Shown here in pieces: positions 20,801 through 64,000 of a stretch of 64,000 bases of DNA. The translations under genes were made by a program, and so were the position numbers. Each line of letters starts with the position of its first letter. The first letter of the stretch is position 1. The DNA lies in NCBI GenBank assembly GCA_009914755.4, contig CP086569.2, positions 29,280,001 through 29,344,000 of the forward strand. The letters run 5' to 3'. The DNA comes from the human T2T-CHM13v2.0 reference genome, Homo sapiens. The notes under the pieces were generated by a model. That model worked only from the letters and a program-made list of their open reading frames with translations. It was not told where the DNA came from and searched no databases.

Positions 20801-21446
20801 TCATTGACTGGAAAGGCTGGGTGTCGAAAGGAATTGACTCCAATGGAATGGAATCGAATGGAATGGAAGTGAATAGAATCGAACTAAATCGAATGGAATG
20901 GAATTGATAGGAACGGAATGGAAAGGAATGCAATGATTTGGCATGGAATGGAATCGAATGGCATCGAATGGAATGGAATGGAATGCAATGGAATGGAATG
21001 TATTAGAATGTAATGAACTTTAATGGAATGTACTCGAATGGATTCGACTGGAATGGAATGTTCTGGAAGTGAATGGGCTCCAATGGAATGGATTCAAAAG
21101 GAATGGAATCGTACGGAATGGAATCTAATGGAATGGAATTAAATGGAAATGAATCAAATTGAATAGCACGGAATTGAATTGAATCGAATCGAATGCAATG
21201 GAATCTAATGAAACGGAAAGGAATGGAGTGGAATGGAATGGAATGGAATGGGCTGGAATGGAAAGGAATCGAAACGAATGGAATGGAATCGAACTGAAGA
21301 GACTGGAATGGAATACACTGGAATGGAAGGGAGTGTAATGGAAGGTTCTCGAAAAAAATGGAATCGAATGGAATGGAATTGAATGGAACGGAATAGAGTC
21401 GAATGGAATTGAATGGAATGGAATGGACTAGAGTGAAATGGAATCG
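17888..21446 (+). repeat. HSat3/DYZ1-type HOR unit 6 (3559 bp)
   Basis: Anchor spacing; ORF 17879..18214 matches 21438..21773. Confidence 0.9.
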
Positions 21447-24400
21447 AACCACAAGGAATGGACAGGAATAGAATGGTCTCGAATTGAATGGAATCATATG
21501 GAATGGCATCAAACGGAATGGAATGGACAGCCACGGAATGGAATGCACTCGAATGCAATGGAGTCGAAACTAATGGACTGGAATAGAATGGACTCGACTG
21601 GTACGGACTCCAATGGAATGGAATCGAATGGAAGGGAATCGAACGGAATGGACTCGAAGGGAAAAGACTGCAATGGAAAGGTCTCGAATGGAATGGAAAT
21701 TAATGGAATGGAATGGAATCGAATGAAATGGAGTCAAAAGGAATGGAATCGAATGGCAAGAAATCGAATGTAATGGAATCGCAAGGAATTGATGTGAACG
21801 GAACGGAATGGAATGGAATCCAAAGGAATGGAATAGAATGGAATGGAATCGAATGGAAAGGACTCGAATGGAAATCACTCGAATAGAATGCAATTTAATA
21901 AAATAGGATCAAATGTAATGGAATGGAATGGAAAGGAATCGAAACGAAAGGAATGGAGACAGATGGAATGGAATGGAACAGAGAGCAATGGTATAGAATG
22001 GAATGGAATCATCTGGAATGGAATTGAATGGAATGGAATAATATGAAATGGAATGGAATGGAATGGAATGCCCTTGAATTAAATGGACTGGAATGGAATG
22101 GACTCGAACAGAGTGGAATGGAAAGTGTTGAGATAGAATGGAATGGACTCCTTTGGAATGGTCTAGTATGCAATGCAATCGACTGGCAGGGAATCAAAAG
22201 GAATGTAATCGAATGGATTGGACTGTAATGCAATGGACTCGAATAGATTGGAAACGGAATGCAAAGGAATGGAATGGAATAGTATGGAATGGAATGGAAA
22301 GGAATGGAGTGGAATAGACTAGAGTGGAATGGAATGGACTGGAAAGCAATGGACTGGAATGGAACATTCTTGAATGGACTGGAATCAAACGGAATGGAAT
22401 GCAATGCAATCAAATGGCATGGAATAAAATAGAATGAAAGAGAATCAAATGGAATTGAATCGAATGGAATCGAATGGATTGGAAAGGAATAGAATGGAAT
22501 GGAATGGAATTGACTCAAATGGAATGGACTAGAATGGAATGGATTCGAATGGAAGGCAAAGGAATGGAATCTATTGGAATGGACTGTAATGGAATGGAAT
22601 GGAAGGGATTGGAATGGACTCGAATGGAATGGACTGCAATAGAAAGGATTCGAATGGAATGAAAAAGAATTGAATGGAATAGAACAGAATGGAATCAAAT
22701 CGAATGAAATGGAATGGAATAGAAAGGAATGGAATGAAATGGAATGGAAAGGATTCGAATGGAATGCAATCGAATGGAATGGAATCGAACGGAATGGAAT
22801 AAAATGGAAGAAAACTGGCAAGAAATGGAATCGAAATGAATGGAGTGTTATGGAACGGACTCAAAAGGAATTGAATGTAATAGAATGGAGTGGAGTGGAC
22901 TCGAATATAATGGACTGGAATGGAATAAAATCACATGGAATGGGAACGAATGGAATGGAATGGAAAGGAATGGAATCGAATGGAAAGGAATCGAATGGAA
23001 GGGAATGAAATTGAATCAACAGGAATGGAAGGGAATAGAATAGACGGTAATGGAATGGACTCGAATAGAATGGACACGAATGCTCAAATTGAATGGACTC
23101 GAATGGAATGGAAACGAAAGGAATGTCATCGAATGGAATTGAATCGATTGGAATGAAATCGCATAGAATGGAGTGGAATCAAATGGAATTGAATCGAAAG
23201 GAAAGGAAGCGAATGGACTGAAATGAAATGGAATGGAATTGAATGGAAAGTAATGCAATGGAATAGAATCGAACGAAGTTTCACGGAATGGAATCAAACT
23301 GAATGGAATCAAATCAATGGAATCTAATCAAATGGAATGGAAAGGAATTGAATGGAGTAGATTGGATTGGATGGGATTGGAATGAAATGTACTGGAAAGA
23401 ACTCGAATTTCATGAAACGGAATGGAATGAATTGGAACGGAATGGACTCGAATGGAATGGAATGTCATGGAATGGCATCAAATGGAATGGCATCAAATGG
23501 AATGGAATCGAATGCAATGGAATGCTATGGAATGGAATGGAATGCATTGGAATGGAATGTCCTCTAATGGAATGGATTCGAGTGGAATGGAATCGAATAT
23601 AATGGAGTCGAATGAAATGGAATTGAAAGGAATGGGATCGAATACAATGGAATATACTGGAATGTAATGTAATGAACTCGAATGTAATTGACTGGAATGG
23701 AATGTACATGAATGGAATGTAATCGAATGGAAAGTAATCCAATGGAATAGAATCTAATGCAATAAAATCGACTCAGATAGAGTAGAATGTAATGGAATGG
23801 AGTGCAGTGCAATGGAATGGAATGGAATGGAATGCAATGGAATGGAATGGAATGGAATGGAATGGAATGGGATGGAATGGTATGGAATGGATAGTAATGG
23901 ACTGGAGTGAAATGGACTGGAAAGGAATGGACTCAAATTGAAAGGGCTCGAAAGGAATGGAGTCAAATGGAATGGTCTGGAATGGAATGAACACGAAAGT
24001 AATGCAATCCAATAGAATGGAATCGAATGGCATGGAATATAAAGAAATGGAATCGAAGAGAATGGAAACAAATGGAATGGAATTGAATGGAATGGAATTG
24101 AATGGAATGGGAACGAATGGAGTGAAATTGTATGCAGTAGAAGGGAATAGAATGGAATGCAAGCGAAAGGAAAGGAATGGATTGGAATGGAATGGAATTC
24201 ATTGGAATGGAAGGGAATGTAGTGTAATGGACAGGCCTGGAATAAAGTGGAATGCTACGGTCTCGAATGGAATAAAAATGTATGGAATGGAATGCAATGA
24301 AACGGAATCGAATGTCATAGAATGTAATGGAATGCAAAAAAATGGAATCCAAAATCATTGACTGGAAAGGCTGGGTGTCGAAAGGAATTGACTCCAATGG

Positions 24401-25000
24401 AATGGAATCGAATGGAATGGAAGTGAATAGAATCGAACTAAATCGAATGGAATGGAATTGATAGGAACGGAATGGAAAGGAATGCAATGATTTGGCATGG
24501 AATGGAATCGAATGGCATCGAATGGAATGGAATGGAATGCAATGGAATGGAATGTATTAGAATGTAATGAACTTTAATGGAATGTACTCGAATGGATTCG
24601 ACTGGAATGGAATGTTCTGGAAGTGAATGGGCTCCAATGGAATGGATTCAAAAGGAATGGAATCGTACGGAATGGAATCTAATGGAATGGAATTAAATGG
24701 AAATGAATCAAATTGAATAGCACGGAATTGAATTGAATCGAATCGAATGCAATGGAATCTAATGAAACGGAAAGGAATGGAGTGGAATGGAATGGAATGG
24801 AATGGGCTGGAATGGAAAGGAATCGAAACGAATGGAATGGAATCGAACTGAAGAGACTGGAATGGAATACACTGGAATGGAAGGGAGTGTAATGGAAGGT
24901 TCTCGAAAAAAATGGAATCGAATGGAATGGAATTGAATGGAACGGAATAGAGTCGAATGGAATTGAATGGAATGGAATGGACTAGAGTGAAATGGAATCG
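21447..25000 (+). repeat. HSat3/DYZ1-type HOR unit 7 (3554 bp)
   Basis: Anchor spacing. This unit shares private variants with unit 6 (ORFs 19749..20048 and 23303..23602 are identical). Confidence 0.9.
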
Positions 25001-28000
25001 AACCACAAGGAATGGACAGGAATAGAATGGTCTCGAATTGAATGGAATCATATGGAATGGCATCAAACGGAATGGAATGGACAGCCACGGAATGGAATGC
25101 ACTCGAATGCAATGGAGTCGAAACTAATGGACTGGAATAGAATGGACTCGACTGGTACGGACTCCAATGGAATGGAATCGAATGGAAGGGAATCGAACGG
25201 AATGGACTCGAAGGGAAAAGACTGCAATGGAAAGGTCTCGAATGGAATGGAAATTAATGGAATGGAATGGAATCGAATGAAATGGAGTCAAAAGGAATGG
25301 AATCGAATGGCAAGAAATCGAATGTAATGGAATCGCAAGGAATTGATGTGAACGGAACGGAATGGAATGGAATCCAAAGGAATGGAATAGAATGGAATGG
25401 AATCGAATGGAAAGGACTCGAATGGAAATCACTCGAATAGAATGCAATTTAATAAAATAGGATCAAATGTAATGGAATGGAATGGAAAGGAATCGAAACG
25501 AAAGGAATGGAGACAGATGGAATGGAATGGAACAGAGAGCAATGGTATAGAATGGAATGGAATCATCTGGAATGGAATTGAATGGAATGGAATACTATGA
25601 AATGGAATGGAATGGAATGGAATGCCCTTGAATTAAATGGACTGGAATGGAATGGACTCGAACAGAGTGGAATGGAAAGTGTTGAGATAGAATGGAATGG
25701 ACTCCTTTGGAATGGTCTAGTATGCAATGCAATCGACTGGCAGGGAATCAAAAGGAATGTAATCGAATGGATTGGACTGTAATGCAATGGACTCGAATAG
25801 ATTGGAAACGGAATGCAAAGGAATGGAATGGAATAGTATGGAATGGAATGGAAAGGAATGGAGTGGAATAGACTAGAGTGGAATGGAATGGACTGGAAAG
25901 CAATGGACTGGAATGGAACATTCTTGAATGGACTGGAATCAAACGGAATGGAATGCAATGCAATCAAATGGCATGGAATAAAATAGAATGAAAGAGAATC
26001 AAATGGAATTGAATCGAATGGAATCGAATGGATTGGAAAGGAATAGAATGGAATGGAATGGAATTGACTCAAATGGAATGGACTAGAATGGAATGGATTC
26101 GAATGGAAGGCAAAGGAATGGAATCTATTGGAATGGACTGTAATGGAATGGAATGGAAGGGATTGGAATGGACTCGAATGGAATGGACTGCAATAGAAAG
26201 GATTCGAATGGAATGAAAAAGAATTGAATGGAATAGAACAGAATGGAATCAAATCGAATGAAATGGAATGGAATAGAAAGGAATGGAATGAAATGGAATG
26301 GAAAGGATTCGAATGGAATGCAATCGAATGGAATGGAATCGAACGGAATGGAATAAAATGGAAGAAAACTGGCAAGAAATGGAATCGAAATGAATGGAGT
26401 GTTATGGAACGGACTCAAAAGGAATTGAATGTAATAGAATGGAGTGGAGTGGACTCGAATATAATGGACTGGAATGGAATGAAATCACATGGAATGGGAA
26501 CGAATGGAATGGAATGGAAAGGAATGGAATCGAATGGAAAGGAATCGAATGGAAGGGAATGAAATTGAATCAACAGGAATGGAAGGGAATAGAATAGACG
26601 GTAATGGAATGGACTCGAATAGAATGGACACGAATGCTCAAATTGAATGGACTCGAATGGAATGGAAACGAAAGGAATGTCATCGAATGGAATTGAATCG
26701 ATTGGAATGAAATCGCATAGAATGGAGTGGAATCAAATGGAATTGAATCGAAAGGAAAGGAAGCGAATGGACTGAAATGAAATGGAATGGAATTGAATGG
26801 AAAGTAATGCAATGGAATAGAATGGAACGAAATTTCACGGAATGGAATCAAACTGAATGGAATCAAATCAATGGAATCTAATCAAATGGAATGGAAAGGA
26901 ATTGAATGGAGTAGATTGGATTGGATGGGATTGGAATGAAATGTACTGGAAAGGACTCGAATTTCATGAAACGGAATGGAATGAATTGGAACGGAATGGA
27001 CTCGAATGGAATGGAATGTCATGGAATGGCATCAAATGGAATGGCATCAAATGGAATGGAATCGAATGCAATGGAATGCTATGGAATGGAATGGAATGCA
27101 TTGGAATGGAATGTCCTCTAATGGAATGGATTCGAGTGGAATGGAATCGAATATAATAGAGTCGAATGAAATAGAATTGAAAGGAATGGGATCAAATACA
27201 ATGGAATATACTGTAATGTAACGTAATGAACTCGAATGTAATTGACTGGAATGGAATGTACATGAATGGAATGTAATCGAATGGAAAGTAATCCAATGGA
27301 ATAGAATCTAATGCAATAAAATCGACTCAAATGGAGTAGAATGTAATGGAATGGAGTGCAGTGCAATGGAATGGAATGGAATGGAATGCAATGGAATGGA
27401 ATGGAATGGGATGGAATGGTATGGAATGGATAGTAATGGACTGGAGTGAAATGGACTGGAAAGGAATGGACTCAAATTGAAAGGGCTCGAAAGGAATGGA
27501 GTCAAATGGAATGGTCTGGAATGGAATGAACACGAATGTAATGCAGTCCAATAGAATGGAATCGAATGGCATGGAATATAAAGAAATGGAATCGAAGAGA
27601 ATGGAAACAAATGGAATGGAATTGAATGGAATGGAATTGAATGGAATGGGAACGAATGGAGTGAAATTGTATGCAGTAGAAGAGAATAGAATGGAATGCA
27701 AGCGAAAGGAAAGGAATGGATTGGAAGGGAATGGAATTCATTGGAATGGAAGGGAATGTAGTGTAATGGACAGGCCTGGAATAAAGTGGAATGCTACGGT
27801 CTCGAATGGAATAAAAATGTATGGAATGGAATGCAATGAAACGGAATCGAATGTCATAGAATGTAATGGAATGCAAAAAAATGGAATCCAAAATCATTGA
27901 CTGGAAAGGCTGGGTGTCGAAAGGAATTGACTCCAATGGAATGGAATCGAATGGAATGGAAGTGAATAGAATCGAACTAAATCGAATGGAATGGAATTGA

Positions 28001-28534
28001 TAGGAACGGATTGGAAAGGAATGCAATGATTTGGCATGGAATGGAATCGAATGGCATCGAATGGAATGGAATGGAATGCAATGGAATGGAATGTATTAGA
28101 ATGTAATGAACTTTAATGGAATGTACTCGAATGGATTCGACTGGAATGGAATGTTCTGGAAGTGAATGGACTCCAATGGAATGGATTCAAAAGGAATGGA
28201 ATCGTACGGAATGGAATCTAATGGAATGGAATTAAATGGAAATGAATCAAATTGAATAGCACGGAATTGAATTGAATGGAATCGAATGCAATGGAATCTA
28301 ATGAAACGAAAAGGAAAGGAATGGAATGGAATGGAATGGGCTGGAATGGAAAGGAATCGAAACGAATGGAATGGAATCGAACTGAAGAGACTGGAATGGA
28401 ATGCACTGGAATGGAAGGGAGTGTAATGGAAGGTTCTCGACAAAAATGAAATCGAATGGAATGGAATTGAATGGAACGGAATAGAGTCGAATGGAATTGA
28501 ATGGAATGGAATGGACTAGAGTGAAATGGAATCG
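25001..28534 (+). repeat. HSat3/DYZ1-type HOR unit 8 (3534 bp)
   Basis: Anchor spacing; ORF 24992..25327 matches 28526..28861. Confidence 0.9.
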
Positions 28535-31500
28535 AACCACAAGGAATGGACAGGAATAGAATGGTCTCGAATTGAATGGAATCGTATGGAATGGCATCAA
28601 ACGGAATGGAATGGACAGCCACGGAATGGAATGCACTCGAATGCAATGGAGTCGAAACTAATGGACTGGAATAGAATGGACTCGACTGGTACGGACTCCA
28701 ATGGAATGGAATCGAATGGAAGGGAATCGAACGGAATGGACTCGAAGGGAAAAGACTGCAATGGAAAGGTCTCGAATGGAATGGAAATTAATGGAATGGA
28801 ATGGAATCGAATGAAATGGAGTCAAAAGGAATGGAATCGAATGGCAAGAAATCGAATGTAATGGAATCGCAAGGAATTGATGTGAACGGAACGGAATGGA
28901 ATGGAATCCAAAGGAATGGAATAGAATGGAATGGAATCGAATGGAAAGGACTCGAATGGAAATCACTCGAATAGAATGCAATTTAATAAAATAGGATCAA
29001 ATGTAATGGAATGGAAAGGAAAGGAATCGAAACGAAAGGAATGGAGACAGATGGAATGGAATGGAACAGAGAGCAATGGTATAGAATGGAATGGAATCAT
29101 CTGGAATGGAATTGAATGGAATGGAATAATATGAAATGGAATGGAATGGAATGGAATGGAATGCCCTTGAATTAAATGGACTGGAATGGAATGGACTCGA
29201 ACAGAGTGGAATGGAAAGTGTTGAGATAGAATGGAATGGACTCCTTTGGAATGGTCTAGTATGCAATGCAATCGACTGGCAGGGAATCAAAAGGAATGTA
29301 ATCGAATGGAATGGACTGGAATGCAATGGACTCGAATAGATTGGAAACGGAATGCAAAGGAATGGAATGGAATAGTATGGAATGGAATGGAAAGGAATGG
29401 AGTGGAATAGACTAGAGTGGAATGGAATGGACTGGAAAGCAATGGACTGGAATGGAACTTTCTTGAATGGACTGGAATCAAACGGAATGGAATGCAATGC
29501 AATCAAATGGCATGGAATAAAATAGAATGAAAGAGAATCAAATGGAATTGAATCGAATGGAATCGAATGGATTGGAAAGGAATAGAATGGAATGGAATGG
29601 AATTGACTCAAATGGAATGGACTAGAATGGAATGGATTCGAATGGAAGGCAAAGGAATGGAATCTATTGGAATGGACTGGAATGGAAGGGATTGGAATGG
29701 ACTCGAATGGAATGGACTGCAATAGAAAGGATTCGAATGGAATGAAAAAGAATTGAATGGAATAGAACAGAATGGAATCAAATCGAATGAAATGGAATGG
29801 AATAGAAAGGAATGGAATGAAATGGAATGGAAAGGATTCGAATGGAATGCAATCGAATGGAATGGAATCGAACGGAATGGAATAAAATGGAAGAAAACTG
29901 GCAAGAAATGGAATCGAAATGAATGGAGTGTTATGGAACGGACTCAAAAGGAATTGAATGTAATAGAATGGAGTGGAGTGGACTCGAATATAATGGACTG
30001 GAATGGAATGAAATCACATGGAATGGGAACGAATGGAATGGAATGGAAAGGAATGGAATCGAATGGAAAGGAATCGAATGGAAGGGAATGAAATTGAATC
30101 AACAGGAAAGGAAGGGAATAGAATAGACGGTAATGGAATGGACTCGAATAGAATGGACACGAATGCTCAAATTGAATGGACTCGAATGGAATGGAAACGA
30201 AAGGAATGTCATCGAATGGAATTGAATCGATTGGAATGAAATCGCATAGAATGGAGTGGAATCAAATGGAATTGAATCGAAAGGAAAGGAAGCGAATGGA
30301 CTGAAATGAAATGGAATGGAATTGAATGGAAAGTAATGCAATGGAATAGAATGGAACGAAATTTCACGGAATGGAATCAAACTGAATGGAATCAATTCAA
30401 TGGAATATAATCAAATGGAATGGAAAGGAATTGAATGGAGTAGATTGGATTGGATGGGATTGGAAAGAAATGTACTGGAAAGGACTCGAATTTCATGAAA
30501 CGGAATGGAATGAATTGGAACGGAATGGACTCGAATGGAATGGAATGTCATGGAATGGCATCAAATGGAATGGCATCAAATGGAATGGAATCGAATGCAA
30601 TGGAATGCTATGGAATGGAATGGAATGCATTGGAATGGAATGTCCTCTAATGGAATGGATTCGAGTGGAATGGAATCGAATATAATAGAGTCGAATGAAA
30701 TAGAATTGAAAGGAATGGGATCGAATACAATGGAATATACTGGAATGTAACGTAATGAACTCGAATGTAATTGACTGGAATGGAATGTACATGAATGGAA
30801 TGTAATCGAATGGAAAGTAATCCAATGGAATAGAATCTAATGCAATAAAATCGACTCAGATAGAGTAGAATGTAATGGAATGGAGTGCAGTGCAATGGAA
30901 TGGAATGGAATGGAATGCAATGGAATGGAATGGAATGGAATGGAATGGAATGGGATGGAATGGTATGGAATGGATAGTAATGGACTGGAGTGAAATGGAC
31001 TGGAAAGGAATGGACTCAAATTGAAAGGGCTCGAAAGGAATGGAGTCAAATGGAATGGTCTGGAATGGAATGAACACGAATGTAATGCAATCCAATAGAA
31101 TGGAATCGAATGGCATGGAATATAAAGAAATGGAATCGAAGAGAATGGAAACAAATGGAATGGAATTGAATGGAATGGAATTGAATGGAATGGGAACGAA
31201 TGGAGTGAAATTGTATGCAGTAGAAGAGAATAGAATGGAATGCAAGCGAAAGGAAAGGAATGGATTGGAATGGAATGGAATTCATTGGAATGGAAGGGAA
31301 TGTAGTGTAATGGACAGGCCTGGAATAAAGTGGAATGCTACGGTCTCGAATGGAATAAAAATGTATGGAATGGAATGCAATGAAACGGAATCGAATGTCA
31401 TAGAATGTAATGGAATGCAAAAAAATGGAATCCAAAATCATTGACTGGAAAGGCTGGGTGTCGAAAGGAATTGACTCCAATGGAATGGAATCGAATGGAA

Positions 31501-32078
31501 TGGAAGTGAATAGAATCGAACTAAATCGAATGGAATGGAATTGATAGGAACGGATTGGAAAGGAATGCAATGATTTGGCATGGAATGGAATCGAATGGCA
31601 TCGAATGGAATGGAATGGAATGCAATGGAATGGAATGTATTAGAATGTAATGAACTTTAATGGAATGTACTCGAATGGATTCGACTGGAATGGAATGTTC
31701 TGGAAGTGAATGGACTCCAATGGAATGGATTCAAAAGGAATGGAATCGTACGGAATGGAATCTAATGGAATGGAATTAAATGGAAATGAATCAAATTGAA
31801 TAGCACGGAATTGAATTGAATGGAATCGAATGCAATGGAATCTAATGAAACGGAAAGGAAAGGAATGGAATGGAATGGAATGGGCTGGAATGGAAAGGAA
31901 TCGAAACGAATGGAATGGAATCGAACTGAAGAGACTGGAATGGAATGCACTGGAATGGAAGGGAGTGTAATGGAAGGTTCTCGACAAAAATGAAATCGAA
32001 TGGAATGGAATTGAATGGAACGGAATAGAGTCGAATGGAATTGAATGGAATGGAATGGACTAGAGTGAAATGGAATCG
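28535..32078 (+). repeat. HSat3/DYZ1-type HOR unit 9 (3544 bp)
   Basis: Anchor spacing. It is the first of three consecutive near-identical units (ORF 30386..30685 = 33940..34239 = 37494..37793). Confidence 0.9.
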
Positions 32079-35000
32079 AACCACAAGGAATGGACAGGAA
32101 TAGAATGGTCTCGAATTGAATGGAATCGTATGGAATGGCATCAAACGGAATGGAATGGACAGCCACGGAATGGAATGCACTCGAATGCAATGGAGTCGAA
32201 ACTAATGGACTGGAATAGAATGGACTCGACTGGTACGGACTCCAATGGAATGGAATCGAATGGAAGGGAATCGAACGGAATGGACTCGAAGGGAAAAGAC
32301 TGCAATGGAAAGGTCTCGAATGGAATGGAAATTAATGGAATGGAATGGAATCGAATGAAATGGAGTCAAAAGGAATGGAATCGAATGGCAAGAAATCGAA
32401 TGTAATGGAATCGCAAGGAATTGATGTGAACGGAACGGAATGGAATGGAATCCAAAGGAATGGAATAGAATGGAATGGAATCGAATGGAAAGGACTCGAA
32501 TGGAAATCACTCGAATAGAATGCAATTTAATAAAATAGGATCAAATGTAATGGAATGGAAAGGAAAGGAATCGAAACGAAAGGAATGGAGACAGATGGAA
32601 TGGAATGGAACAGAGAGCGATGGTATAGAATGGAATGGAATCATCTGGAATGGAATTGAATGGAATGGAATAATATGAAATGGAATGGAATGGAATGGAA
32701 TGGAATGCCCTTGAATTAAATGGACTGGAATGGAATGGACTCGAACAGAGTGGAATGGAAAGTGTTGAGATAGAATGGAATGGACTCCTTTGGAATGGTC
32801 TAGTATGCAATGCAATCGACTGGCAGGGAATCAAAAGGAATGTAATCGAATGGAATGGACTGGAATGCAATGGACTCGAATAGATTGGAAACGGAATGCA
32901 AAGGAATGGAATGGAATAGTATGGAATGGAATGGAAAGGAATGGAGTGGAATAGACTAGAGTGGAATGGAATGGACTGGAAAGCAATGGACTGGAATGGA
33001 ACTTTCTTGAATGGACTGGAATCAAACGGAATGGAATGCAATGCAATCAAATGGCATGGAATAAAATAGAATGAAAGAGAATCAAATGGAATTGAATCGA
33101 ATGGAATCGAATGGATTGGAAAGGAATAGAATGGAATGGAATGGAATTGACTCAAATGGAATGGACTAGAATGGAATGGATTCGAATGGAAGGCAAAGGA
33201 ATGGAATCTATTGGAATGGACTGTAATGGAATGGAATGGAAGGGATTGGAATGGACTCGAATGGAATGGACTGCAATAGAAAGGATTCGAATGGAATGAA
33301 AAAGAATTGAATGGAATAGAACAGAATGGAATCAAATCGAATGAAATGGAATGGAATAGAAAGGAATGGAATGAAATGGAATGGAAAGGATTCGAATGGA
33401 ATGCAATCGAATGGAATGGAATCGAACGGAATGGAATAAAATGGAAGAAAACTGGCAAGAAATGGAATCGAAATGAATGGAGTGTTATGGAACGGACTCA
33501 AAAGGAATTGAATGTAATAGAATGGAGTGGAGTGGACTCGAATATAATGGACTGGAATGGAATGAAATCACATGGAATGGGAACGAATGGAATGGAATGG
33601 AAAGGAATGGAATCGAATGGAAAGGAATCGAATGGAAGGGAATGAAATTGAATCAACAGGAAAGGAAGGGAATAGAATAGACGGTAATGGAATGGACTCG
33701 AATAGAATGGACACGAATGCTCAAATTGAATGGACTCGAATGGAATGGAAACGAAAGGAATGTCATCGAATGGAATTGAATCGATTGGAATGAAATCGCA
33801 TAGAATGGAGTGGAATCAAATGGAATTGAATCGAAAGGAAAGGAAGCGAATGGACTGAAATGAAATGGAATGGAATTGAATGGAAAGTAATGCAATGGAA
33901 TAGAATGGAACGAAATTTCACGGAATGGAATCAAACTGAATGGAATCAATTCAATGGAATATAATCAAATGGAATGGAAAGGAATTGAATGGAGTAGATT
34001 GGATTGGATGGGATTGGAAAGAAATGTACTGGAAAGGACTCGAATTTCATGAAACGGAATGGAATGAATTGGAACGGAATGGACTCGAATGGAATGGAAT
34101 GTCATGGAATGGCATCAAATGGAATGGCATCAAATGGAATGGAATCGAATGCAATGGAATGCTATGGAATGGAATGGAATGCATTGGAATGGAATGTCCT
34201 CTAATGGAATGGATTCGAGTGGAATGGAATCGAATATAATAGAGTCGAATGAAATAGAATTGAAAGGAATGGGATCGAATACAATGGAATATACTGGAAT
34301 GTAACGTAATGAACTCGAATGTAATTGACTGGAATGGAATGTACATGAATGGAATGTAATCGAATGGAAAGTAATCCAATGGAATAGAATCTAATGCAAT
34401 AAAATCGACTCAGATAGAGTAGAATGTAATGGAATGGAGTGCAGTGCAATGGAATGGAATGGAATGGAATGCAATGGAATGGAATGGAATGGAATGGAAT
34501 GGAATGGGATGGAATGGTATGGAATGGATAGTAATGGACTGGAGTGAAATGGACTGGAAAGGAATGGACTCAAATTGAAAGGGCTCGAAAGGAATGGAGT
34601 CAAATGGAATGGTCTGGAATGGAATGAACACGAATGTAATGCAATCCAATAGAATGGAATCGAATGGCATGGAATATAAAGAAATGGAATCGAAGAGAAT
34701 GGAAACAAATGGAATGGAATTGAATGGAATGGAATTGAATGGAATGGGAACGAATGGAGTGAAATTGTATGCAGTAGAAGAGAATAGAATGGAATGCAAG
34801 CGAAAGGAAAGGAATGGATTGGAATGGAATGGAATTCATTGGAATGGAAGGGAATGTAGTGTAATGGACAGGCCTGGAATAAAGTGGAATGCTACGGTCT
34901 CGAATGGAATAAAAATGTATGGAATGGAATGCAATGAAACGGAATCGAATGTCATAGAATGTAATGGAATGCAAAAAAATGGAATCCAAAATCATTGACT

Positions 35001-35632
35001 GGAAAGGCTGGGTGTCGAAAGGAATTGACTCCAATGGAATGGAATCGAATGGAATGGAAGTGAATAGAATCGAACTAAATCGAATGGAATGGAATTGATA
35101 GGAACGGATTGGAAAGGAATGCAATGATTTGGCATGGAATGGAATCGAATGGCATCGAATGGAATGGAATGGAATGCAATGGAATGGAATGTATTAGAAT
35201 GTAATGAACTTTAATGGAATGTACTCGAATGGATTCGACTGGAATGGAATGTTCTGGAAGTGAATGGACTCCAATGGAATGGATTCAAAAGGAATGGAAT
35301 CGTACGGAATGGAATCTAATGGAATGGAATTAAATGGAAATGAATCAAATTGAATAGCACGGAATTGAATTGAATGGAATCGAATGCAATGGAATCTAAT
35401 GAAACGGAAAGGAAAGGAATGGAATGGAATGGAATGGGCTGGAATGGAAAGGAATCGAAACGAATGGAATGGAATCGAACTGAAGAGACTGGAATGGAAT
35501 GCACTGGAATGGAAGGGAGTGTAATGGAAGGTTCTCGACAAAAATGAAATCGAATGGAATGGAATTGAATGGAACGGAATAGAGTCGAATGGAATTGAAT
35601 GGAATGGAATGGACTAGAGTGAAATGGAATCG
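32079..35632 (+). repeat. HSat3/DYZ1-type HOR unit 10 (3554 bp)
   Basis: Anchor spacing; near-identical to units 9 and 11. Confidence 0.9.
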
Positions 35633-38600
35633 AACCACAAGGAATGGACAGGAATAGAATGGTCTCGAATTGAATGGAATCGTATGGAATGGCATCAAAC
35701 GGAATGGAATGGACAGCCACGGAATGGAATGCACTCGAATGCAATGGAGTCGAAACTAATGGACTGGAATAGAATGGACTCGACTGGTACGGACTCCAAT
35801 GGAATGGAATCGAATGGAAGGGAATCGAACGGAATGGACTCGAAGGGAAAAGACTGCAATGGAAAGGTCTCGAATGGAATGGAAATTAATGGAATGGAAT
35901 GGAATCGAATGAAATGGAGTCAAAAGGAATGGAATCGAATGGCAAGAAATCGAATGTAATGGAATCGCAAGGAATTGATGTGAACGGAACGGAATGGAAT
36001 GGAATCCAAAGGAATGGAATAGAATGGAATGGAATCGAATGGAAAGGACTCGAATGGAAATCACTCGAATAGAATGCAATTTAATAAAATAGGATCAAAT
36101 GTAATGGAATGGAAAGGAAAGGAATCGAAACGAAAGGAATGGAGACAGATGGAATGGAATGGAACAGAGAGCGATGGTATAGAATGGAATGGAATCATCT
36201 GGAATGGAATTGAATGGAATGGAATAATATGAAATGGAATGGAATGGAATGGAATGGAATGCCCTTGAATTAAATGGACTGGAATGGAATGGACTCGAAC
36301 AGAGTGGAATGGAAAGTGTTGAGATAGAATGGAATGGACTCCTTTGGAATGGTCTAGTATGCAATGCAATCGACTGGCAGGGAATCAAAAGGAATGTAAT
36401 CGAATGGAATGGACTGGAATGCAATGGACTCGAATAGATTGGAAACGGAATGCAAAGGAATGGAATGGAATAGTATGGAATGGAATGGAAAGGAATGGAG
36501 TGGAATAGACTAGAGTGGAATGGAATGGACTGGAAAGCAATGGACTGGAATGGAACTTTCTTGAATGGACTGGAATCAAACGGAATGGAATGCAATGCAA
36601 TCAAATGGCATGGAATAAAATAGAATGAAAGAGAATCAAATGGAATTGAATCGAATGGAATCGAATGGATTGGAAAGGAATAGAATGGAATGGAATGGAA
36701 TTGACTCAAATGGAATGGACTAGAATGGAATGGATTCGAATGGAAGGCAAAGGAATGGAATCTATTGGAATGGACTGTAATGGAATGGAATGGAAGGGAT
36801 TGGAATGGACTCGAATGGAATGGACTGCAATAGAAAGGATTCGAATGGAATGAAAAAGAATTGAATGGAATAGAACAGAATGGAATCAAATCGAATGAAA
36901 TGGAATGGAATAGAAAGGAATGGAATGAAATGGAATGGAAAGGATTCGAATGGAATGCAATCGAATGGAATGGAATCGAACGGAATGGAATAAAATGGAA
37001 GAAAACTGGCAAGAAATGGAATCGAAATGAATGGAGTGTTATGGAACGGACTCAAAAGGAATTGAATGTAATAGAATGGAGTGGAGTGGACTCGAATATA
37101 ATGGACTGGAATGGAATGAAATCACATGGAATGGGAACGAATGGAATGGAATGGAAAGGAATGGAATCGAATGGAAAGGAATCGAATGGAAGGGAATGAA
37201 ATTGAATCAACAGGAAAGGAAGGGAATAGAATAGACGGTAATGGAATGGACTCGAATAGAATGGACACGAATGCTCAAATTGAATGGACTCGAATGGAAT
37301 GGAAACGAAAGGAATGTCATCGAATGGAATTGAATCGATTGGAATGAAATCGCATAGAATGGAGTGGAATCAAATGGAATTGAATCGAAAGGAAAGGAAG
37401 CGAATGGACTGAAATGAAATGGAATGGAATTGAATGGAAAGTAATGCAATGGAATAGAATGGAACGAAATTTCACGGAATGGAATCAAACTGAATGGAAT
37501 CAATTCAATGGAATATAATCAAATGGAATGGAAAGGAATTGAATGGAGTAGATTGGATTGGATGGGATTGGAAAGAAATGTACTGGAAAGGACTCGAATT
37601 TCATGAAACGGAATGGAATGAATTGGAACGGAATGGACTCGAATGGAATGGAATGTCATGGAATGGCATCAAATGGAATGGCATCAAATGGAATGGAATC
37701 GAATGCAATGGAATGCTATGGAATGGAATGGAATGCATTGGAATGGAATGTCCTCTAATGGAATGGATTCGAGTGGAATGGAATCGAATATAATAGAGTC
37801 GAATGAAATAGAATTGAAAGGAATGGGATCGAATACAATGGAATATACTGTAATGTAACGTAATGAACTCGAATGTAATTGACTGGAATGGAATGTACAT
37901 GAATGGAATGTAATCGAATGGAAAGTAATCCAATGGAATAGAATCTAATGCAATAAAATCGACTCAAATGGAGTAGAATGTAATGGAATGGAGTGCAGTG
38001 CAATGGAATGGAATGGAATGGAATGCAATGGAATGGAATGGAATGGGATGGAATGGTATGGAATGGATAGTAATGGACTGGAGTGAAATGGACTGGAAAG
38101 GAATGGACTCAAATTGAAAGGGCTCGAAAGGAATGGAGTCAAATGGAATGGTCTGGAATGGAATGAACACGAATGTAATGCAATCCAATAGAATGGAATC
38201 GAATGGCATGGAATATAAAGAAATGGAATCGAAGAGAATGGAAACAAATGGAATGGAATTGAATGGAATGGAATTGAATGGAATGGGAATGAATGGAGTG
38301 AAATTGTATGCAGTAGAAGAGAATAGAATGGAATGCAAGCGAAAGGAAAGGAATGGATTGGAATGGAATGGAATTCATTGGAATGGAAGGGAATGTAGTG
38401 TAATGGACAGGCCTGGAATAAAGTGGAATGCTACGGTCTCGAATGGAATAAAAATGTATGGAATGGAATGCAATGAAACGGAATCGAATGTCATAGAATG
38501 TAATGGAATGCAAAAAAATGGAATCCAAAATCATTGACTGGAAAGGCTGGGTGTCGAAAGGAATTGACTCCAATGGAATGGAATCGAATGGAATGGAAGT

Positions 38601-39176
38601 GAATAGAATCGAACTAAATCGAATGGAATGGAATTGATAGGAACGGATTGGAAAGGAATGCAATGATTTGGCATGGAATGGAATCGAATGGCATCGAATG
38701 GAATGGAATGGAATGCAATGGAATGGAATGTATTAGAATGTAATGAACTTTAATGGAATGTACTCGAATGGATTCGACTGGAATGGAATGTTCTGGAAGT
38801 GAATGGACTCCAATGGAATGGATTCAAAAGGAATGGAATGGTACGGAATGGAATCTAATGGAATGGAATTAAATGGAAATGAATCAAATTGAATAGCACG
38901 GAATTGAATTGAATGGAATCGAATGCAATGGAATCTAATGAAACGGAAAGGAATGGAGTGGAATGGAATGGAATGGAATGGGCTGGAATGGAAAGGAATC
39001 GAAAGGAATGGAATGGAATCGAACTGAAGAGACTGGAATGGAATGCACTGGAATGGAAGGGAGTGTAATGGAAGGTTCTCGAAAAAAATGGAATCGAATG
39101 GAATGGAATTGAATGGAACGGAATAGAGTCGAATGGAATTGAATGGAATGGAATGGACTAGAGTGAAATGGAATCG
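35633..39176 (+). repeat. HSat3/DYZ1-type HOR unit 11 (3544 bp)
   Basis: Anchor spacing; near-identical to units 9 and 10. Confidence 0.9.
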
Positions 39177-40748
39177 AACCACAAGGAATGGACAGGAATA
39201 GAATGGTCTCGAATTGAATGGAATCGTATGGAATGGCATCAAACGGAATGGAATGGACAGCCACGGAATGGAATGCACTCGAATGCAATGGAGTCGAAAC
39301 TAATGGACTGGAATAGAATGGACTCGACTGGTACGGACTCCAATGGAATGGAATCGAATGGAAGGGAATCGAACGGAATGGACTCGAAGGGAAAAGACTG
39401 CAATGGAAAGGTCTCGAATGGAATGGAAATTAATGGAATGGAATGGAATCGAATGAAATGGAGTCAAAAGGAATGGAATCGAATGGCAAGAAATCGAATG
39501 TAATGGAATCGCAAGGAATTGATGTGAACGGAACGGAATGGAATGGAATCCAAAGGAATGGAATAGAATGGAATGGAATCGAATGGAAAGGACTCGAATG
39601 GAAATCACTCGAATAGAATGCAATTTAATAAAATAGGATCAAATGGAATGGAATGGAATGGAAAGGAATCGAAACGAAAGGAATGGAGACAGATGGAATG
39701 GAATGGAACAGAGAGCAATGGTATAGAATGGAATGGAATCATCTGGAATGGAATTGAATGGAATGGAATAATATGAAATGGAATGGAATGGAACGGAATG
39801 CCCTTGAATTAAATGGACTGGAATGGAATGGACTCGAACAGAGTGGAATGGAAAGTGTTGAGATAGAATGGAATGGACTCGTTTGGAATGGTCTAGTAGG
39901 CAATGCAATCGACTGGCAGGGAATCAAAAGGAATGTAATGGAATGGATTGGACTGGAATGCAATGGACTCGAATAGATTGGAAACGGAATGCAAAGGAAT
40001 GGAATGGAATAGTATGGAATGGAATGGAAAGGAATGGAGTGGAATAGACTAGAGTGGAATGGAATGGACTGGAAAGCAATGGACTGGAATGGAACTTTCT
40101 TGAATGGACTGGAATCAAACGGAATGGAATGCAATGCAATCAAATGGCATGGAATAAAATAGAATGAAAGAGAATCAAATGGAATTGAATCGAATGGAAT
40201 CGAATGGATTGGAAAGGAATAGAATGGAATGGAATGGAATTGACTCAAATGGAATGGACTAGAATGGAATGGATTCGAATGGAAGGCAAAGGAATGGAAT
40301 CTATTGGAATGGACTGTAATGGAATGGAATGGAAGGGATTGGAATGGACTCGAATGGAATGGACTGCAATAGAAAGGATTCGAATGGAATGAAAAAGAAT
40401 TGAATGGAATAGAACAGAATGGAATCAAATCGAATGAAATGGAATGGAATAGAAAGGAATGGAATGAAATGGAATGGAAAGGATTCGAATGGAATGCAAT
40501 CGAATGGAATGGAATCGAACGGAATGGAATAAAATGGAAGAAAACTGGCAAGAAATGGAATCGAAATGAATGGAGTGTTATGGAACGGACTCAAAAGGAA
40601 TTGAATGTAATAGAATGGAGTGGAGTGGACTCGAATATAATGGACTGGAATGGAATGAAATCACATGGATTGGGAACGAATGGAATGGAATGGAAAGGAA
40701 TGGAATCGAATGGAAAGGAATCGAATGGAAGGGAATGAAATTGAATGG
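39177..40748 (+). repeat. HSat3/DYZ1-type HOR unit 12, truncated after about 1.57 kb at the junction with the AT-rich repeat
   Basis: The unit aligns to 35633..~37204 of the previous unit. At 40744/40748 the GGAAT-type sequence stops and AT-rich sequence begins. Confidence 0.88.
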
Positions 40749-41437
40749 ACTATATATTTTGTTATATATACTTTTATAACATAATTTACATAAAATAACA
40801 TAATGTAATATATATTATATTATTTCATATTACATAATATATATTACATATCACCCAATATAAGTAACATACATAATATTATAATATAGATTATATTATG
40901 TTATATTAAATATCATATATATCATGTATCATATATTCTATAATATATATTATATATTATATAATATGTATGTTGTCTATTATGTGATATATATAACTAT
41001 ATATATAATTATATTATTATACATATTATACATATAACTAGATAAACATGTAATTCTACATATTTTCGTTTATAATATATAGAATTATATAATCATATAT
41101 AATTATTTATATTCTATAAAAAATTATATCATTGTATAAATTATAATATATAAAAATTATAATATGTACTACAAATATATACATTATATATCATATATGA
41201 TATAGTACCTTTGTTATATATCATAATACATATAAATGTGTTTTATGTTATCTATAATTATCTAATTTCTTATATAAGGTGTATAATATGTATCATATAT
41301 TATATATGTTATGTAATATATATAGTATATATAAGATGACACAGGATAAATATTATATACTATGACATATAAAATATATGAGGTTATATGTTACATATAA
41401 GGCATAGCACATAACATGTAATATATATCATATATAA
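40749..41437 (-). repeat. DYZ2-type unit, partial (3' part of the AT-rich segment, immediately after the junction)
   Basis: 40749-41437 aligns to 43178-43853 of the next unit, with a small (~11-13 bp) indel near 41020. Confidence 0.85.
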
Positions 41438-41735
<298 letters not shown>

Positions 41736-42300
41736 ATATTTTTTAAATGAAAAAAAATTTCAAAGGTATTCTGCTTGGTACAATAATCAAATGTATAAAC
41801 TGAGGAATAAAACATAACCATGAAACCTACTTATAACTGCATATGGAAAATACAGAGGATAATTTTTTAAATAACATATTTTGAAAGCCTTAACTAGTAA
41901 TTTGAAGAGTTGGCATTTGAAAGGCCAGTATGAATATACCTTCAAAGCAGCAACACAGGTTCCCCATGAGAAAAAGCAAACTCAGGGAAAATAAAACCAC
42001 AAAGGCTCAATCTCTTCTGACCTTTGAAAGACACAGCACAGACAGTGGTCCTTAGGACGAAGAGCAGGAGACCCCTAATTCTGTCACCATGGCGATAGGG
42101 CATAAACATTGCTGGGTAAGGGCACAATCCACATTGTGAGGTCCAACTGCTGCCAGGAAGACAGGAGTGCTTTTACATAGACCGAAAGGTCATTGAAGTC
42201 TCAGAGTTTCGTTTCAAGAACTGAATCCCAAGCCCACACGTTATTAGGCTGCGATTCTTAAAACAAGTTATGAGATGGGAAAAAGGGCACCCACAAACAT
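41736..42300. other. About 0.57-kb non-AT-rich segment of the DYZ2-type unit whose origin is not recognisable by eye. Representative copy; it recurs once per unit at ~44153, ~46567, ~48985, ~51343, ~53763, ~56183, ~58597, ~61009 and ~63429.
   Basis: It lies between the Alu and the AT-rich block. GC content is ~40% against ~15% in the flanks. It carries a fortuitous 61-aa minus-strand ORF. Copies are >97% identical. Confidence 0.7.
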
Positions 42301-43830
42301 ACGTATACATTATGTATATAATAATATACAGTATCATATATATAATATATATAACCTATGTATAATATTGTTTTACATCCTGCATCTTATGTTATATATA
42401 TTGTATAAAATATAATAATTGATAATATATAAGTTTTATATTTATACAATATGACATATAGTATATATTATAATTTATGACATATATAATATATTTTATA
42501 TATCATATATAGAATATATTATACGGTTAATATACGTATTAAATATAAATTATACATTATATATATTGTATATAATATATCTGTTATATATAATACCCAT
42601 TATGCATAATATATATATTATGTCTATGTTATATATAGTATAAAACAACATATAATAATATATAATTGTATATATAAAATGCGACATATAATATATATTA
42701 TATTTTACGATATATGTAATATATATTATATTTTTTATATAATACGTTGTATGTATAATACCTATATTAAATATATATTATATGACTATGTTATTAATTA
42801 CATGTCACATATGTTATATATTATATATTTTACATAGAATATACGGGTTACATACAATATATACTATGTTACCTATAATGTATAATTTATTACATGTAAA
42901 ATAAAGAATGCAATATATTATGTATAATTTATAATATACAATATGTGGAATGTGATATATATAACATATAATATATGATGTATGATATACAGTATATGAT
43001 ATATAACATACAATATATGATACCTAATATATATGGTATACAATATATATTTTATGATATGAATTCTATATGTTTTATATTCTGTTACATATAACTATTT
43101 GAAATTATATATAACTGTATAATATTTTATGTAAATATGTAATATAATATATATAACTATATAATATATTATATGTAACTATATATTATGTTATATATAC
43201 TTTTATAACATAATTTACATAAAATATCATAATATAATATATATTATATTATTTCATATTACATAATATATATTACATATCACCCAATATAAGTAACATA
43301 CATAATATTATAATATAGATTATATTGTTATATTAAATATCATATATATCATGTATCATATATTCTATAATATATATTATATATTATATAATATGTATGT
43401 TGTCTATTATGTGATATATATAACTATATATAATTATATTATTATACATATAACTAGATAAACATGTAATTCTACATATTTTCATTTATAATATATAGAA
43501 TTATATAATCATATATAATTATTTATATTCTATAAAAAATTATATCATTATATAAATTATAATATATAAAAATTATAATATGTACTACAAATATATATAT
43601 TATATATCATATATGATATAGTACCTTTGTTTTATATCATAATACATATAAATGTGTTTTATGTTATCTATAATTATCTAATTTCATATATAAGATGTAT
43701 AATATGTATTATATATTATATATGCTATGTAATATATATAGTATATATAAGCTGACACAGGATAAATATTATATACTATGACATATAAAATATATGAGGT
43801 TATATGTTACATATAAGGCATAGCACATAA

Positions 43831-64000
<20,170 letters not shown>

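What the first reader, a model, noticed from the sequence alone, without database searches (positions are those of the whole stretch)
40730..40770. Precise DYZ1-type / DYZ2-type array breakpoint with no transition zone
The HSat3 HOR unit that starts at 39177 follows its neighbours faithfully up to '...ggaagggaatgaaattgaatgg' (40748). The previous unit continues '...ttgaatcaacaggaatgg'. From 40749 the sequence instead reads 'actatatattttgttatatatactttt...', which aligns to an internal position of the AT-rich unit (43178 'actatatattatgttatatatactttt'). Neither array shows a gradient of divergence approaching the junction. The HSat3 unit is cut at ~44% of its length and the AT-rich unit is entered mid-unit. 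Array-to-array junctions of this kind record the rearrangement that juxtaposed the blocks (non-homologous joining or unequal exchange). If every other DYZ1-to-DYZ2 junction on the chromosome has the identical phase, the alternating-block structure arose by amplifying a larger super-unit.
Basis: seen in the sequence. Interest (0 to 1): 0.6.

Follow-up and report, generated by a model that had tools for sequence, protein, structure and literature searches.

The report
Human Y DYZ1–DYZ2 satellite array junction
This is a real, razor-sharp join between the two satellite repeats that alternate along the human Y long-arm heterochromatin; such joins are an expected feature, but on the AT-rich side this one sits at the centre of that repeat's strongest hairpin-forming palindrome, which hints at how the join was made.

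Summary
Bases 1-40746 are a 3.53-3.56 kb GGAAT-derived repeat (DYZ1/HSat3). Bases 40749-64000 are a 2.36-2.43 kb AT-rich/Alu/HSATI repeat (DYZ2/HSat1B). The switch takes 2 nt ('GG', 40747-40748), and there is no homology between the two units at the breakpoint. Neither array shows a divergence gradient within the window.

Alternating DYZ1/DYZ2 arrays are well-known architecture of human Yq12, so the junction as such is ordinary.

One result is new to me. In intact DYZ2 units the breakpoint-equivalent lies 0-8 nt from the centre of the strongest palindrome of the whole 2.4 kb unit. That palindrome is a 96-nt, 92% AT hairpin and ranks first of 2,415 possible centres in 6/8 window units and 3/3 external copies. 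The breakpoint falls inside its apical loop. The DYZ1 side has no such structure.

My best reading is a hairpin or cruciform-tip break in DYZ2 that was end-joined to an unrelated DYZ1 break. Homology-driven array or multi-array duplication then carried the junction along.

No second copy of the junction was found in any searchable collection.

The parts
1..40746 (+). DYZ1 (HSat3A6-type) array shown as the GGAAT strand. It holds 11 complete units of 3529-3554 nt in breakpoint phase plus a partial first unit.
   Evidence: The k-mer period is 3529-3559 nt. TRF gives the 15-nt consensus AATGGAATGGAATGG. Units are 97.4-100% identical to each other. There is one GGCC site per unit. Identity to human-contaminant DYZ1 contigs L012, L016 and L025 is 99.0-99.5%.
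37208..40746 (+). Last DYZ1 unit before the junction. It is no more diverged than the other units.
   Evidence: It is 97.8-98.8% identical to the other units and 0.45% from the local consensus.
40747..40748 (.). Two orphan bases 'GG' that match neither parent in register. They could be a filler, or DYZ1 bases left after a 5-nt or 40-nt local deletion.
   Evidence: DYZ1 paralogs read 'ca' here and DYZ2 paralogs read 'ta'. DYZ1 has 'gga' 5 nt downstream and 'ggact' 40 nt downstream. GGACT occurs 30 times per DYZ1 unit.
40749..64000 (-). DYZ2 (HSat1B) array entered mid-unit within its AT-rich segment. It holds 9 complete units of 2356-2429 nt plus a partial last unit. The Alu subunit lies on the minus strand.
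   Evidence: The period is 2356-2421 nt. Units are 94-99% identical. An Alu-like 290 nt on the minus strand recurs every unit, for example at 41438-41729. Identity to external DYZ2 contigs is up to 98.3%.
40749..40793 (+). The retained 3' half of the DYZ2 palindrome (last 3 loop bases plus the right arm). Its partner arm has been replaced by DYZ1, so the hairpin no longer exists at the junction.
   Evidence: This is mapped from the intact copy at 43178-43222. The junction-centred fold is only -4.7/-4.8 kcal/mol, against -16.2/-21.4 for intact copies.
43127..43222 (.). An intact reference copy of the 96-nt AT-rich imperfect palindrome, with apical loop 43170-43180. The breakpoint-equivalent 43177|43178 lies inside that loop.
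   Evidence: The DNA minimum-free-energy fold is -16.2 kcal/mol with 38 bp and 92% AT. On the consensus, z = -3.17. It is the best palindrome centre of the whole unit.
41438..41729 (-). The 5'-truncated, diverged Alu subunit of the first DYZ2 unit, about 690 nt from the junction. It is not involved in the break.
38410..38413 (.). The single HaeIII site (GGCC) of the last DYZ1 unit. It serves as a phase marker: the break lies 2336 nt downstream.
   Evidence: GGCC site list.

Best explanation
The window crosses a genuine boundary between a DYZ1 (HSat3) array and a DYZ2 (HSat1B) array of the human Yq12 heterochromatin. The junction was made once by non-homologous end joining of two unrelated breaks, with 2 orphan nucleotides or at most 1-3 nt of microhomology.

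On the DYZ2 side the break fell in the apical loop of the strongest AT-rich palindrome of the 2.4 kb unit. The most likely trigger is therefore cleavage or opening of a hairpin or cruciform tip, as in palindrome-mediated translocations. The DYZ1 end was an ordinary break.

Joining destroyed the palindrome at that copy. The junction has since been a passive passenger. Homology-driven unequal exchange and duplication within the flanking arrays, and of larger multi-array segments, keep the units on both sides homogenised right up to the join and can copy the junction itself.

Shown here: the anatomy of the junction, the absence of homology, the coincidence with the palindrome centre, and the local homogeneity.

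Inferred: hairpin-tip breakage, end joining, and later propagation.
For: Identity of the arrays:
- The periods are 3.53-3.56 kb and 2.36-2.43 kb, and the left array has a pentamer consensus.
- DYZ1 has one HaeIII site per unit, and DYZ2 gives a 2143-nt HaeIII fragment.
- DYZ2 carries a 290-nt diverged, 5'-truncated Alu. This matches the published descriptions.
- Identity to human-contaminant contigs is up to 98.3% for DYZ2 and 99.0-99.5% for the best DYZ1 contigs.

Non-homologous junction:
- All 11 DYZ1 paralogs and 10 external copies continue 'caacagg'.
- All 9 DYZ2 paralogs and about 9 external copies are preceded by 'tatata' (one window unit 'tatgta'). There is no shared sequence.

Palindrome:
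- With 50-nt arms the best of 2,415 centres (-21.4 kcal/mol; mean -9.0, sd 2.4) lies 3 nt from the breakpoint-equivalent in 6/8 window units and in 3/3 external DYZ2 copies. In the other two units the breakpoint is in the top 0.25-1.2%.
- The breakpoint region is the global minimum for arms of 40, 60, 80 and 100 nt, at offsets -4, -8, 0 and -6. It is in the top 0.7% for arms of 25 and 35 nt.
- The minimum-free-energy fold puts the break inside the 11-nt apical loop. The z-scores are -3.17 and -3.97 against dinucleotide shuffles.
- A random breakpoint would fall within ±3 nt of the top centre with p of about 0.003.
- The DYZ1 side is unremarkable, at the 77th percentile.
- A stall at a hairpin base would place a break about 48 nt from the centre. 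A central break fits tip cleavage better (inference).
- HSat1B is reported to be enriched in inverted repeats (Rhie et al.).

Homogenisation up to the edge: adjacent DYZ1 units 1-2 and 4-5 units from the junction are 100% and 99.94% identical.

Propagation: multi-block duplications up to 5 Mb and array gain/loss are published.
Against: - This is a single junction, so the palindrome coincidence is n=1. It was tested after inspecting the site, although the hypothesis was stated before the scan.
- The palindrome is short and imperfect: 38 bp in 96 nt. The classical translocation-prone AT-rich palindromes are 200-600 bp and nearly perfect (PMC7999016).
- Alternative folds of a longer stretch put an apex 18-25 nt 3' of the break. 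The gapless inverted-repeat finder gives centres at -11 and +26 nt.
- Cruciform motifs were not detected as single-stranded DNA in vivo by permanganate/S1 footprinting (PMC12637528).
- The two orphan bases are not P-nucleotides of the retained arm. A P-nucleotide would be 'gt', not 'gg'.
- Read-level support for the assembly at this position could not be checked.
Confidence: 0.5

Rival explanations
1. Ordinary random double-strand breaks in both arrays were joined by non-homologous end joining. On this view the position at the DYZ2 palindrome centre is a coincidence with no causal role.
For: The junction anatomy (2 orphan nt, no homology) needs nothing beyond end joining. The AT-rich segment is full of imperfect inverted repeats: 51 pairs in 600 nt. 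The palindrome is modest in size and perfection compared with known fragile palindromes. Cruciform motifs gave no detectable in vivo signal.
Against: The breakpoint coincides within 0-8 nt with the single best palindrome centre out of 2,415, across arm lengths of 40-100 nt and in external copies. The nominal p is about 0.003-0.01.
Confidence: 0.3
2. A replication-based template switch (FoSTeS/MMBIR type) made the junction. The nascent strand skipped 40 nt within DYZ1 between two GAAT repeats, then switched into DYZ2 using the 3-nt microhomology ACT. No untemplated bases are needed.
For: DYZ1 reads 'gaatggactcgaat' exactly 40 nt (8 pentamers) downstream of 40746. The junction 'attgaatggactatat' can therefore be read as DYZ1 + DYZ1(+40) + DYZ2 with GAAT and ACT overlaps. 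A hairpin-prone template could stall a replication fork.
Against: GGACT occurs 30 times per DYZ1 unit, about one per 118 nt, so finding one 40 nt away is not unusual. An equally good parse needs only a 5-nt deletion (CAACA) and 1 nt of overlap. A fork stalled by a hairpin should stop at the stem base, not in the loop (inference).
Confidence: 0.12
3. The junction is an assembly artefact: a false join of a DYZ1 contig to a DYZ2 contig, or a chimeric read.
For: Nothing in the sequence points to this. Its only basis is that read support could not be inspected, and that palindromes do break short-read assemblies. Three of 11 metagenome DYZ2 contigs end 1-20 nt from this palindrome centre.
Against: Alternating DYZ1/DYZ2 arrays are established by FISH and many independent assemblies, so such junctions must exist. 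Overlap-based assemblers cannot join sequences that share no overlap. Both flanks are in perfect register with their arrays up to the last base.
Confidence: 0.03
4. The junction was created directly by unequal homologous exchange between arrays.
For: Unequal exchange is the accepted mode of Yq12 evolution.
Against: The DYZ1 and DYZ2 sequences have no homology at or around the breakpoint. Exchange can copy a junction but cannot create one.
Confidence: 0.01

Closest known systems
Alternating DYZ1 (HSat3A6) / DYZ2 (HSat1B) arrays of human Yq12 (Rhie et al. 2023, T2T-Y; Hallast et al. 2023)
   Same: The unit lengths, pentamer basis, HaeIII pattern and tripartite DYZ2 unit with a diverged 5'-truncated Alu all match. 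So does the abutting of the arrays. Hallast et al. also mention a junction between the DYZ2 AT-rich segment and DYZ1 at the proximal inversion breakpoint.
   Different: Nothing differs in kind. The published texts I could read give block-scale structure and manually refined boundary coordinates. They do not give the nucleotide-level phase, the filler bases, or the palindrome position described here.
Palindromic AT-rich repeat (PATRR)-mediated rearrangements, e.g. t(11;22) (review PMC7999016)
   Same: The palindrome is more than 90% AT. The break lies at the centre (hairpin tip). The break was joined to an unrelated sequence by non-homologous end joining, and the palindrome is lost in the product.
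   Different: PATRRs are 200-600 bp and nearly perfect, and typically both partners are palindromes. Here the palindrome is about 96 nt with 38 bp of interrupted stem. The partner (DYZ1) has no Watson-Crick hairpin. The event is ancient and intrachromosomal or inter-satellite, not a recurrent constitutional translocation.
Satellite array boundaries with diverged, degenerate edge units (for example alpha-satellite HOR arrays flanked by monomeric layers, and the divergent-periphery pattern reported for DYZ2 arrays)
   Same: It is an edge of a homogenised tandem array.
   Different: There is no layer of decayed units within the 11 or 9 units seen here. Identical neighbouring DYZ1 units occur one unit from the edge.

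Membership tests
DYZ1 / HSat3A6 (human Y 3.56-kb repeat) | Tandem unit of about 3.5-3.6 kb | tested here: met
   Unit lengths are 3529-3554 nt and the k-mer period peaks at 3554/3544/3539. Published figures are about 3.5-3.6 kb, mean 3,543 bp.
DYZ1 / HSat3A6 (human Y 3.56-kb repeat) | Built from diverged GGAAT/CATTC pentamers | tested here: met
   TRF reports period 15, consensus AATGGAATGGAATGG, 183 copies in 38002-40749.
DYZ1 / HSat3A6 (human Y 3.56-kb repeat) | One HaeIII site per unit (the classical 3.4/3.56-kb male-specific HaeIII band; from memory of Cooke 1976 and Nakahori 1986) | tested here: met
   There are 11 GGCC sites in 1-40746, spaced one unit apart.
DYZ1 / HSat3A6 (human Y 3.56-kb repeat) | Location on the human Y chromosome | not testable with these tools
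   No human assembly is available. The only indirect evidence is 99.0-99.5% identity of the best-matching contaminant contigs found in prokaryote assemblies (others 94-99%), which the T2T-Y paper attributes to human Y satellites.
DYZ2 / HSat1B | Tandem unit of about 2.4 kb (mode 2,413-2,420 bp) | tested here: met
   Unit lengths are 2429, 2415, 2415, 2356, 2420, 2421, 2415, 2414 and 2417 nt.
DYZ2 / HSat1B | Tripartite unit: an AT-rich simple-repeat segment (>85% AT), a roughly 290-bp 5'-truncated Alu about 20% diverged, and a GC-richer HSATI segment | tested here: met
   The 100-nt GC profile runs 8-18%, then 45-55%, then 28-50%, then 8-18%. The HSATI part was not compared with a reference.
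PATRR (palindromic AT-rich repeat) fragile site | More than 90% AT | tested here: met
   92% AT over the 100-nt consensus.
PATRR (palindromic AT-rich repeat) fragile site | Near-perfect palindrome several hundred bp long | tested here: not met
   The palindrome is 96 nt with 38 bp of stem interrupted by internal loops and an 11-nt apical loop. Gapless arm complementarity is 71-79%. The definition comes from PMC7999016.
PATRR (palindromic AT-rich repeat) fragile site | Rearrangement breakpoint at the palindrome centre, joined without homology | tested here: met
   The breakpoint-equivalent is 0-8 nt from the best centre and lies inside the apical loop. The junction has no homology.
PATRR (palindromic AT-rich repeat) fragile site | Cruciform extrusion and breakage demonstrated experimentally, with recurrent events | not testable with these tools
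   This needs experiments or many independent junctions. A genome-wide footprinting study did not detect cruciform motifs in vivo.

The most novel reading that the evidence does not exclude
The alternating DYZ1/DYZ2 pattern of Yq12 descends from one founding event, in which a break at the tip of the DYZ2 AT-rich palindrome was end-joined to DYZ1. All, or most, DYZ1-to-DYZ2 junctions would then carry this exact 'ATTGAAT-GG-ACTATAT' join. The reciprocal DYZ2-to-DYZ1 junctions would retain the left palindrome arm. The same palindrome, present in thousands of copies, would remain a preferred breakage site behind the gain, loss and inversion of arrays that drives Y-length polymorphism.
Probability: 0.25. 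Interest if true: 0.6.

Novelty: already known. Interest (0 to 1): 0.33.

Why it matters
Yq12 is the largest heterochromatic block in the human genome and the main source of Y-length variation. How its alternating two-satellite pattern arose is not explained in the papers I could read.

A junction's exact sequence serves as a molecular birthmark. If all junctions share this one, the pattern grew from a single founding join that was then amplified. If the DYZ2 palindrome is the preferred break site, it offers a concrete mechanism for array gain, loss and inversion.

Both questions can be answered in minutes on existing complete Y assemblies. On its own, this single junction is an expected feature of a known architecture.

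Tried and rejected
1. I searched for other copies of the junction. The exact 22-mer GAAATTGAATGGACTATATATT gave 0 hits in metagenome contigs, genome contigs and viral contigs.

2. I used flank-only probes to retrieve any junction variant. I found 11 DYZ2-bearing metagenome contigs and 10 DYZ1-bearing contigs in prokaryote assemblies. All continue as internal units. L001, L007 and L009 join DYZ2-like AT-rich DNA to unrelated sequence rather than to DYZ1.

3. I tried a protein route. Exact look-up of the two junction-spanning ORFs (69 aa on +, 46 aa on -) found nothing. A homology search with the 46-aa ORF found no candidate. I ran no further search on this.

4. I checked for involvement of the DYZ2 Alu in the break and rejected it. 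The Alu lies about 690 nt away on the opposite strand.

5. I checked for P-nucleotides from off-centre hairpin opening and rejected them. The expected bases are 'gt' and the observed bases are 'gg'.

6. I checked for a hairpin on the DYZ1 side. There is none under Watson-Crick energy rules. Non-canonical GGAAT self-structures are not modelled by these parameters.

7. I looked for a divergence gradient towards the junction and found none within the window.

8. I searched the literature for a nucleotide-level description of DYZ1/DYZ2 junction phases, or for a DYZ2 palindrome breakpoint. I found none in the T2T-Y preprint, Hallast et al. (main text and supplement), the 2026 population-scale preprint, or PATRR-related searches.
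Full report
WHAT IS THERE

The window consists of two tandem arrays that meet at 40746-40749.

Left array, 1-40746:
- Strong positive GC and AT skew and 37-41% GC.
- A k-mer period of 3529-3559 nt.
- A GGAAT-pentamer substructure; TRF gives the consensus AATGGAATGGAATGG.
- Exactly one HaeIII site per unit.

Right array, 40749-64000:
- No skew, and GC oscillating between 13% and 40%.
- A period of 2356-2421 nt.
- A unit built of a long segment with 8-18% GC, a roughly 290-nt Alu-like piece on the minus strand, and a GC-richer piece.

These are the published descriptions of DYZ1/HSat3A6 (about 3.5-3.6 kb, pentamer-derived) and DYZ2/HSat1B (about 2.4 kb; AT-rich simple repeat, a 5'-truncated and roughly 20% diverged Alu, and HSATI). 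The two alternate in 34-86 arrays along human Yq12 (Rhie et al. preprint; Hallast et al. preprint and supplement).

Contaminant contigs carrying the same repeats turned up in prokaryote assemblies and in metagenomes. They are up to 98.3% (DYZ2) and 99.0-99.5% (best DYZ1 contigs) identical to window units. This is the kind of human-Y contamination the T2T-Y paper reports.

THE JUNCTION

The 400 nt to the left match 11 paralogous DYZ1 positions at 99.5-99.75%, but only up to 40746 ('...gggaatgaaattgaat'). All 11 paralogs and 10 external DYZ1 copies then continue 'caacagg...'.

From 40749 ('actatatatt...') the sequence matches 9 internal DYZ2 positions, at 97-98% over the first 200 nt. Each of these positions, and each external DYZ2 copy, is preceded by '...tatattatat(a/g)ta'.

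Bases 40747-40748 ('gg') match neither parent in register. Three parsings are equally allowed by the data:
- (A) two untemplated bases;
- (B) a 40-nt (8-pentamer) skip within DYZ1 to 'ggact', then a 3-nt ACT overlap with DYZ2;
- (C) loss of the 5-nt 'caaca', then 'gga' with a 1-nt overlap.

GGACT occurs 30 times per DYZ1 unit, so parse B is not compelling. All three parsings are signatures of end joining or template switching, not of homologous exchange.

NO TRANSITION ZONE

- The last DYZ1 unit is 97.8-98.8% identical to the others, which is within the range of all pairs, 97.4-100%.
- The first DYZ2 unit is 96.3-97.0% identical to the others, excluding the deletion-bearing unit 48008-50363 (94.2% with gaps counted). 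Most other pairs are 96.7-97.7%.
- Substitutions against the local consensus show no trend with distance from the junction (Spearman p=0.46 for DYZ1 and 0.44 for DYZ2).
- Adjacent DYZ1 units 1-2 units from the edge are 100% identical, and those 4-5 units away are 99.94% identical. Very recent unit duplication therefore operates right at the array edge.

One caveat applies. The window shows about 11 DYZ1 and 9 DYZ2 units, while arrays have a median of 129 units. Hallast et al. report somewhat higher divergence towards DYZ2 array ends on that larger scale.

MECHANISM: THE DYZ2 BREAK SITS AT A PALINDROME CENTRE

The break lies in a very AT-rich segment, so I asked whether it coincides with a hairpin-forming inverted repeat.

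100-nt window scan:
- Sliding 100-nt DNA folds along intact DYZ2 units placed the most stable window within 5 nt of the breakpoint-equivalent in 4/9 units. It was in the top 4 of 465 windows in 7/9 units.
- The fold is a 96-nt hairpin with 38 bp, 92% AT and -16.2 kcal/mol. Its 11-nt apical loop (43170-43180) contains the breakpoint-equivalent 43177|43178.
- The consensus gives z = -3.17 against dinucleotide shuffles. A 161-nt stretch gives z = -3.97.

Direct scan of every possible centre (left arm against right arm):
- With 50-nt arms the global optimum of 2,415 centres is -21.4 kcal/mol, against a mean of -9.0 and an sd of 2.4. It lies 3 nt from the breakpoint-equivalent in 6/8 window units and in 3/3 external DYZ2 copies. 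The other two units rank in the top 0.25-1.2%.
- The result holds for arms of 40-100 nt, with the global optimum at offsets -8 to 0. It weakens to the top 0.7% for arms of 25-35 nt.
- A random breakpoint would land within ±3 nt of the top centre with p of about 0.003.

Controls and consequences:
- The DYZ1 side is unremarkable, at the 77th percentile.
- At the junction itself only the right arm survives and the hairpin is gone, at -4.7 kcal/mol.

This geometry matches that of palindrome-mediated rearrangements, in which a cruciform or hairpin is cut or opened at its tip and the ends are joined by NHEJ (review PMC7999016). A fork stalled by a hairpin would be expected to stop at the stem base, about 48 nt away, so the central position favours tip cleavage. 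That last step is inference.

LIMITS OF THE MECHANISM CLAIM

- This is one junction.
- The palindrome is much shorter and less perfect than classical PATRRs, which are 200-600 bp and nearly perfect. It fails that membership criterion.
- Alternative folds or gapless repeat finders put other centres 11-26 nt away.
- A genome-wide footprinting study did not see cruciform motifs as single-stranded DNA in vivo.

I therefore give about 0.9 to 'real, non-homologous junction of Yq12 arrays' and about 0.5 to the full statement that includes the palindrome trigger.

The proposal was that identical phase at all junctions would imply amplification of a larger DYZ1+DYZ2 super-unit. This could not be tested:
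- The junction 22-mer is absent from all three searchable DNA collections.
- About 20 retrieved Y-satellite contigs are all internal units.
- Junction-spanning ORFs are not in the protein collections.

Block-scale evidence for the idea already exists. T2T-Y shows iterative tandem duplications up to 5 Mb spanning several DYZ1 and DYZ2 blocks. Across 84 assemblies, Yq12 length correlates with array number (rho = 0.78) and not with array size. I found no nucleotide-level statement of junction phases or of a palindrome breakpoint in the texts available to me.

VERDICT

The mid-unit cut and the absence of homology show that the junction arose by non-homologous joining. Unequal exchange can only have copied it.

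The added value of this second look is the coincidence of the DYZ2 break with the centre of the unit's strongest AT-rich palindrome. That gives a specific and cheaply testable hypothesis for how the two satellites were first joined, and possibly for how Yq12 arrays keep breaking.

Noticed in passing
window 30100-37207 and 19463-26570: Adjacent DYZ1 units are 100% identical (30100-33653 vs 33654-37207) and 99.94% identical (19463-23016 vs 23017-26570). These are very recent single-unit duplications within 1-5 units of the array edge.
   Followed up: partly
window 1759-15918: Alternate DYZ1 units pair up: units 1/3 are 98.96% identical and units 2/4 are 98.90%, against 97.5-98.3% for neighbours. 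There are also k-mer distances of 7083/7087 nt. Together these indicate a two-unit (about 7.1 kb) higher-order period in the left part of the window.
   Followed up: no
window 48008-50363: One DYZ2 unit is only 2356 nt long. It carries a deletion of about 60 nt relative to its neighbours (66 differences in one 250-column alignment bin).
   Followed up: no
window 41649-44066 (repeated each DYZ2 unit): Most DYZ2 units have four HaeIII sites clustered in the GC-rich part; three units have three and one has five. The large fragment, 41923 to 44066, is 2143 nt. This matches the classical 2.1-kb male-specific HaeIII band, as I recall it from memory.
   Followed up: no
L012, L015, L016, L018, L020, L021, L023, L024, L025 (genome contigs): Short contigs made of DYZ1 sequence sit in species-representative assemblies of Streptomyces, Actinomadura, Streptosporangium, Actinacidiphila and others. 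Most are 97.7-99.5% identical to window units; L015 and L021 are 93-94%. These look like human-Y contamination of prokaryote genome records.
   Followed up: partly
L003, L007, L009 (metagenome contigs), ends of contigs: Three of 11 DYZ2-bearing metagenome contigs terminate 1-20 nt from the DYZ2 palindrome centre. This is probably the assembler breaking at the inverted repeat, and it gives independent if artefactual testimony to the palindromic nature of the site.
   Followed up: no
L001:1-165, L007:1-1265, L009:1-1846: DYZ2-like AT-rich sequence is joined to unrelated sequence that matches nothing in the window. These may be chimeric assemblies or HSat1-like fragments at other genomic sites. 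They are not DYZ1 junctions.
   Followed up: partly
window 40759 and 62461: The junction unit carries 'tattttgtt' where most DYZ2 units have 'tattatgtt'. The same variant recurs only in the unit starting at 62451, nine units away.
   Followed up: no
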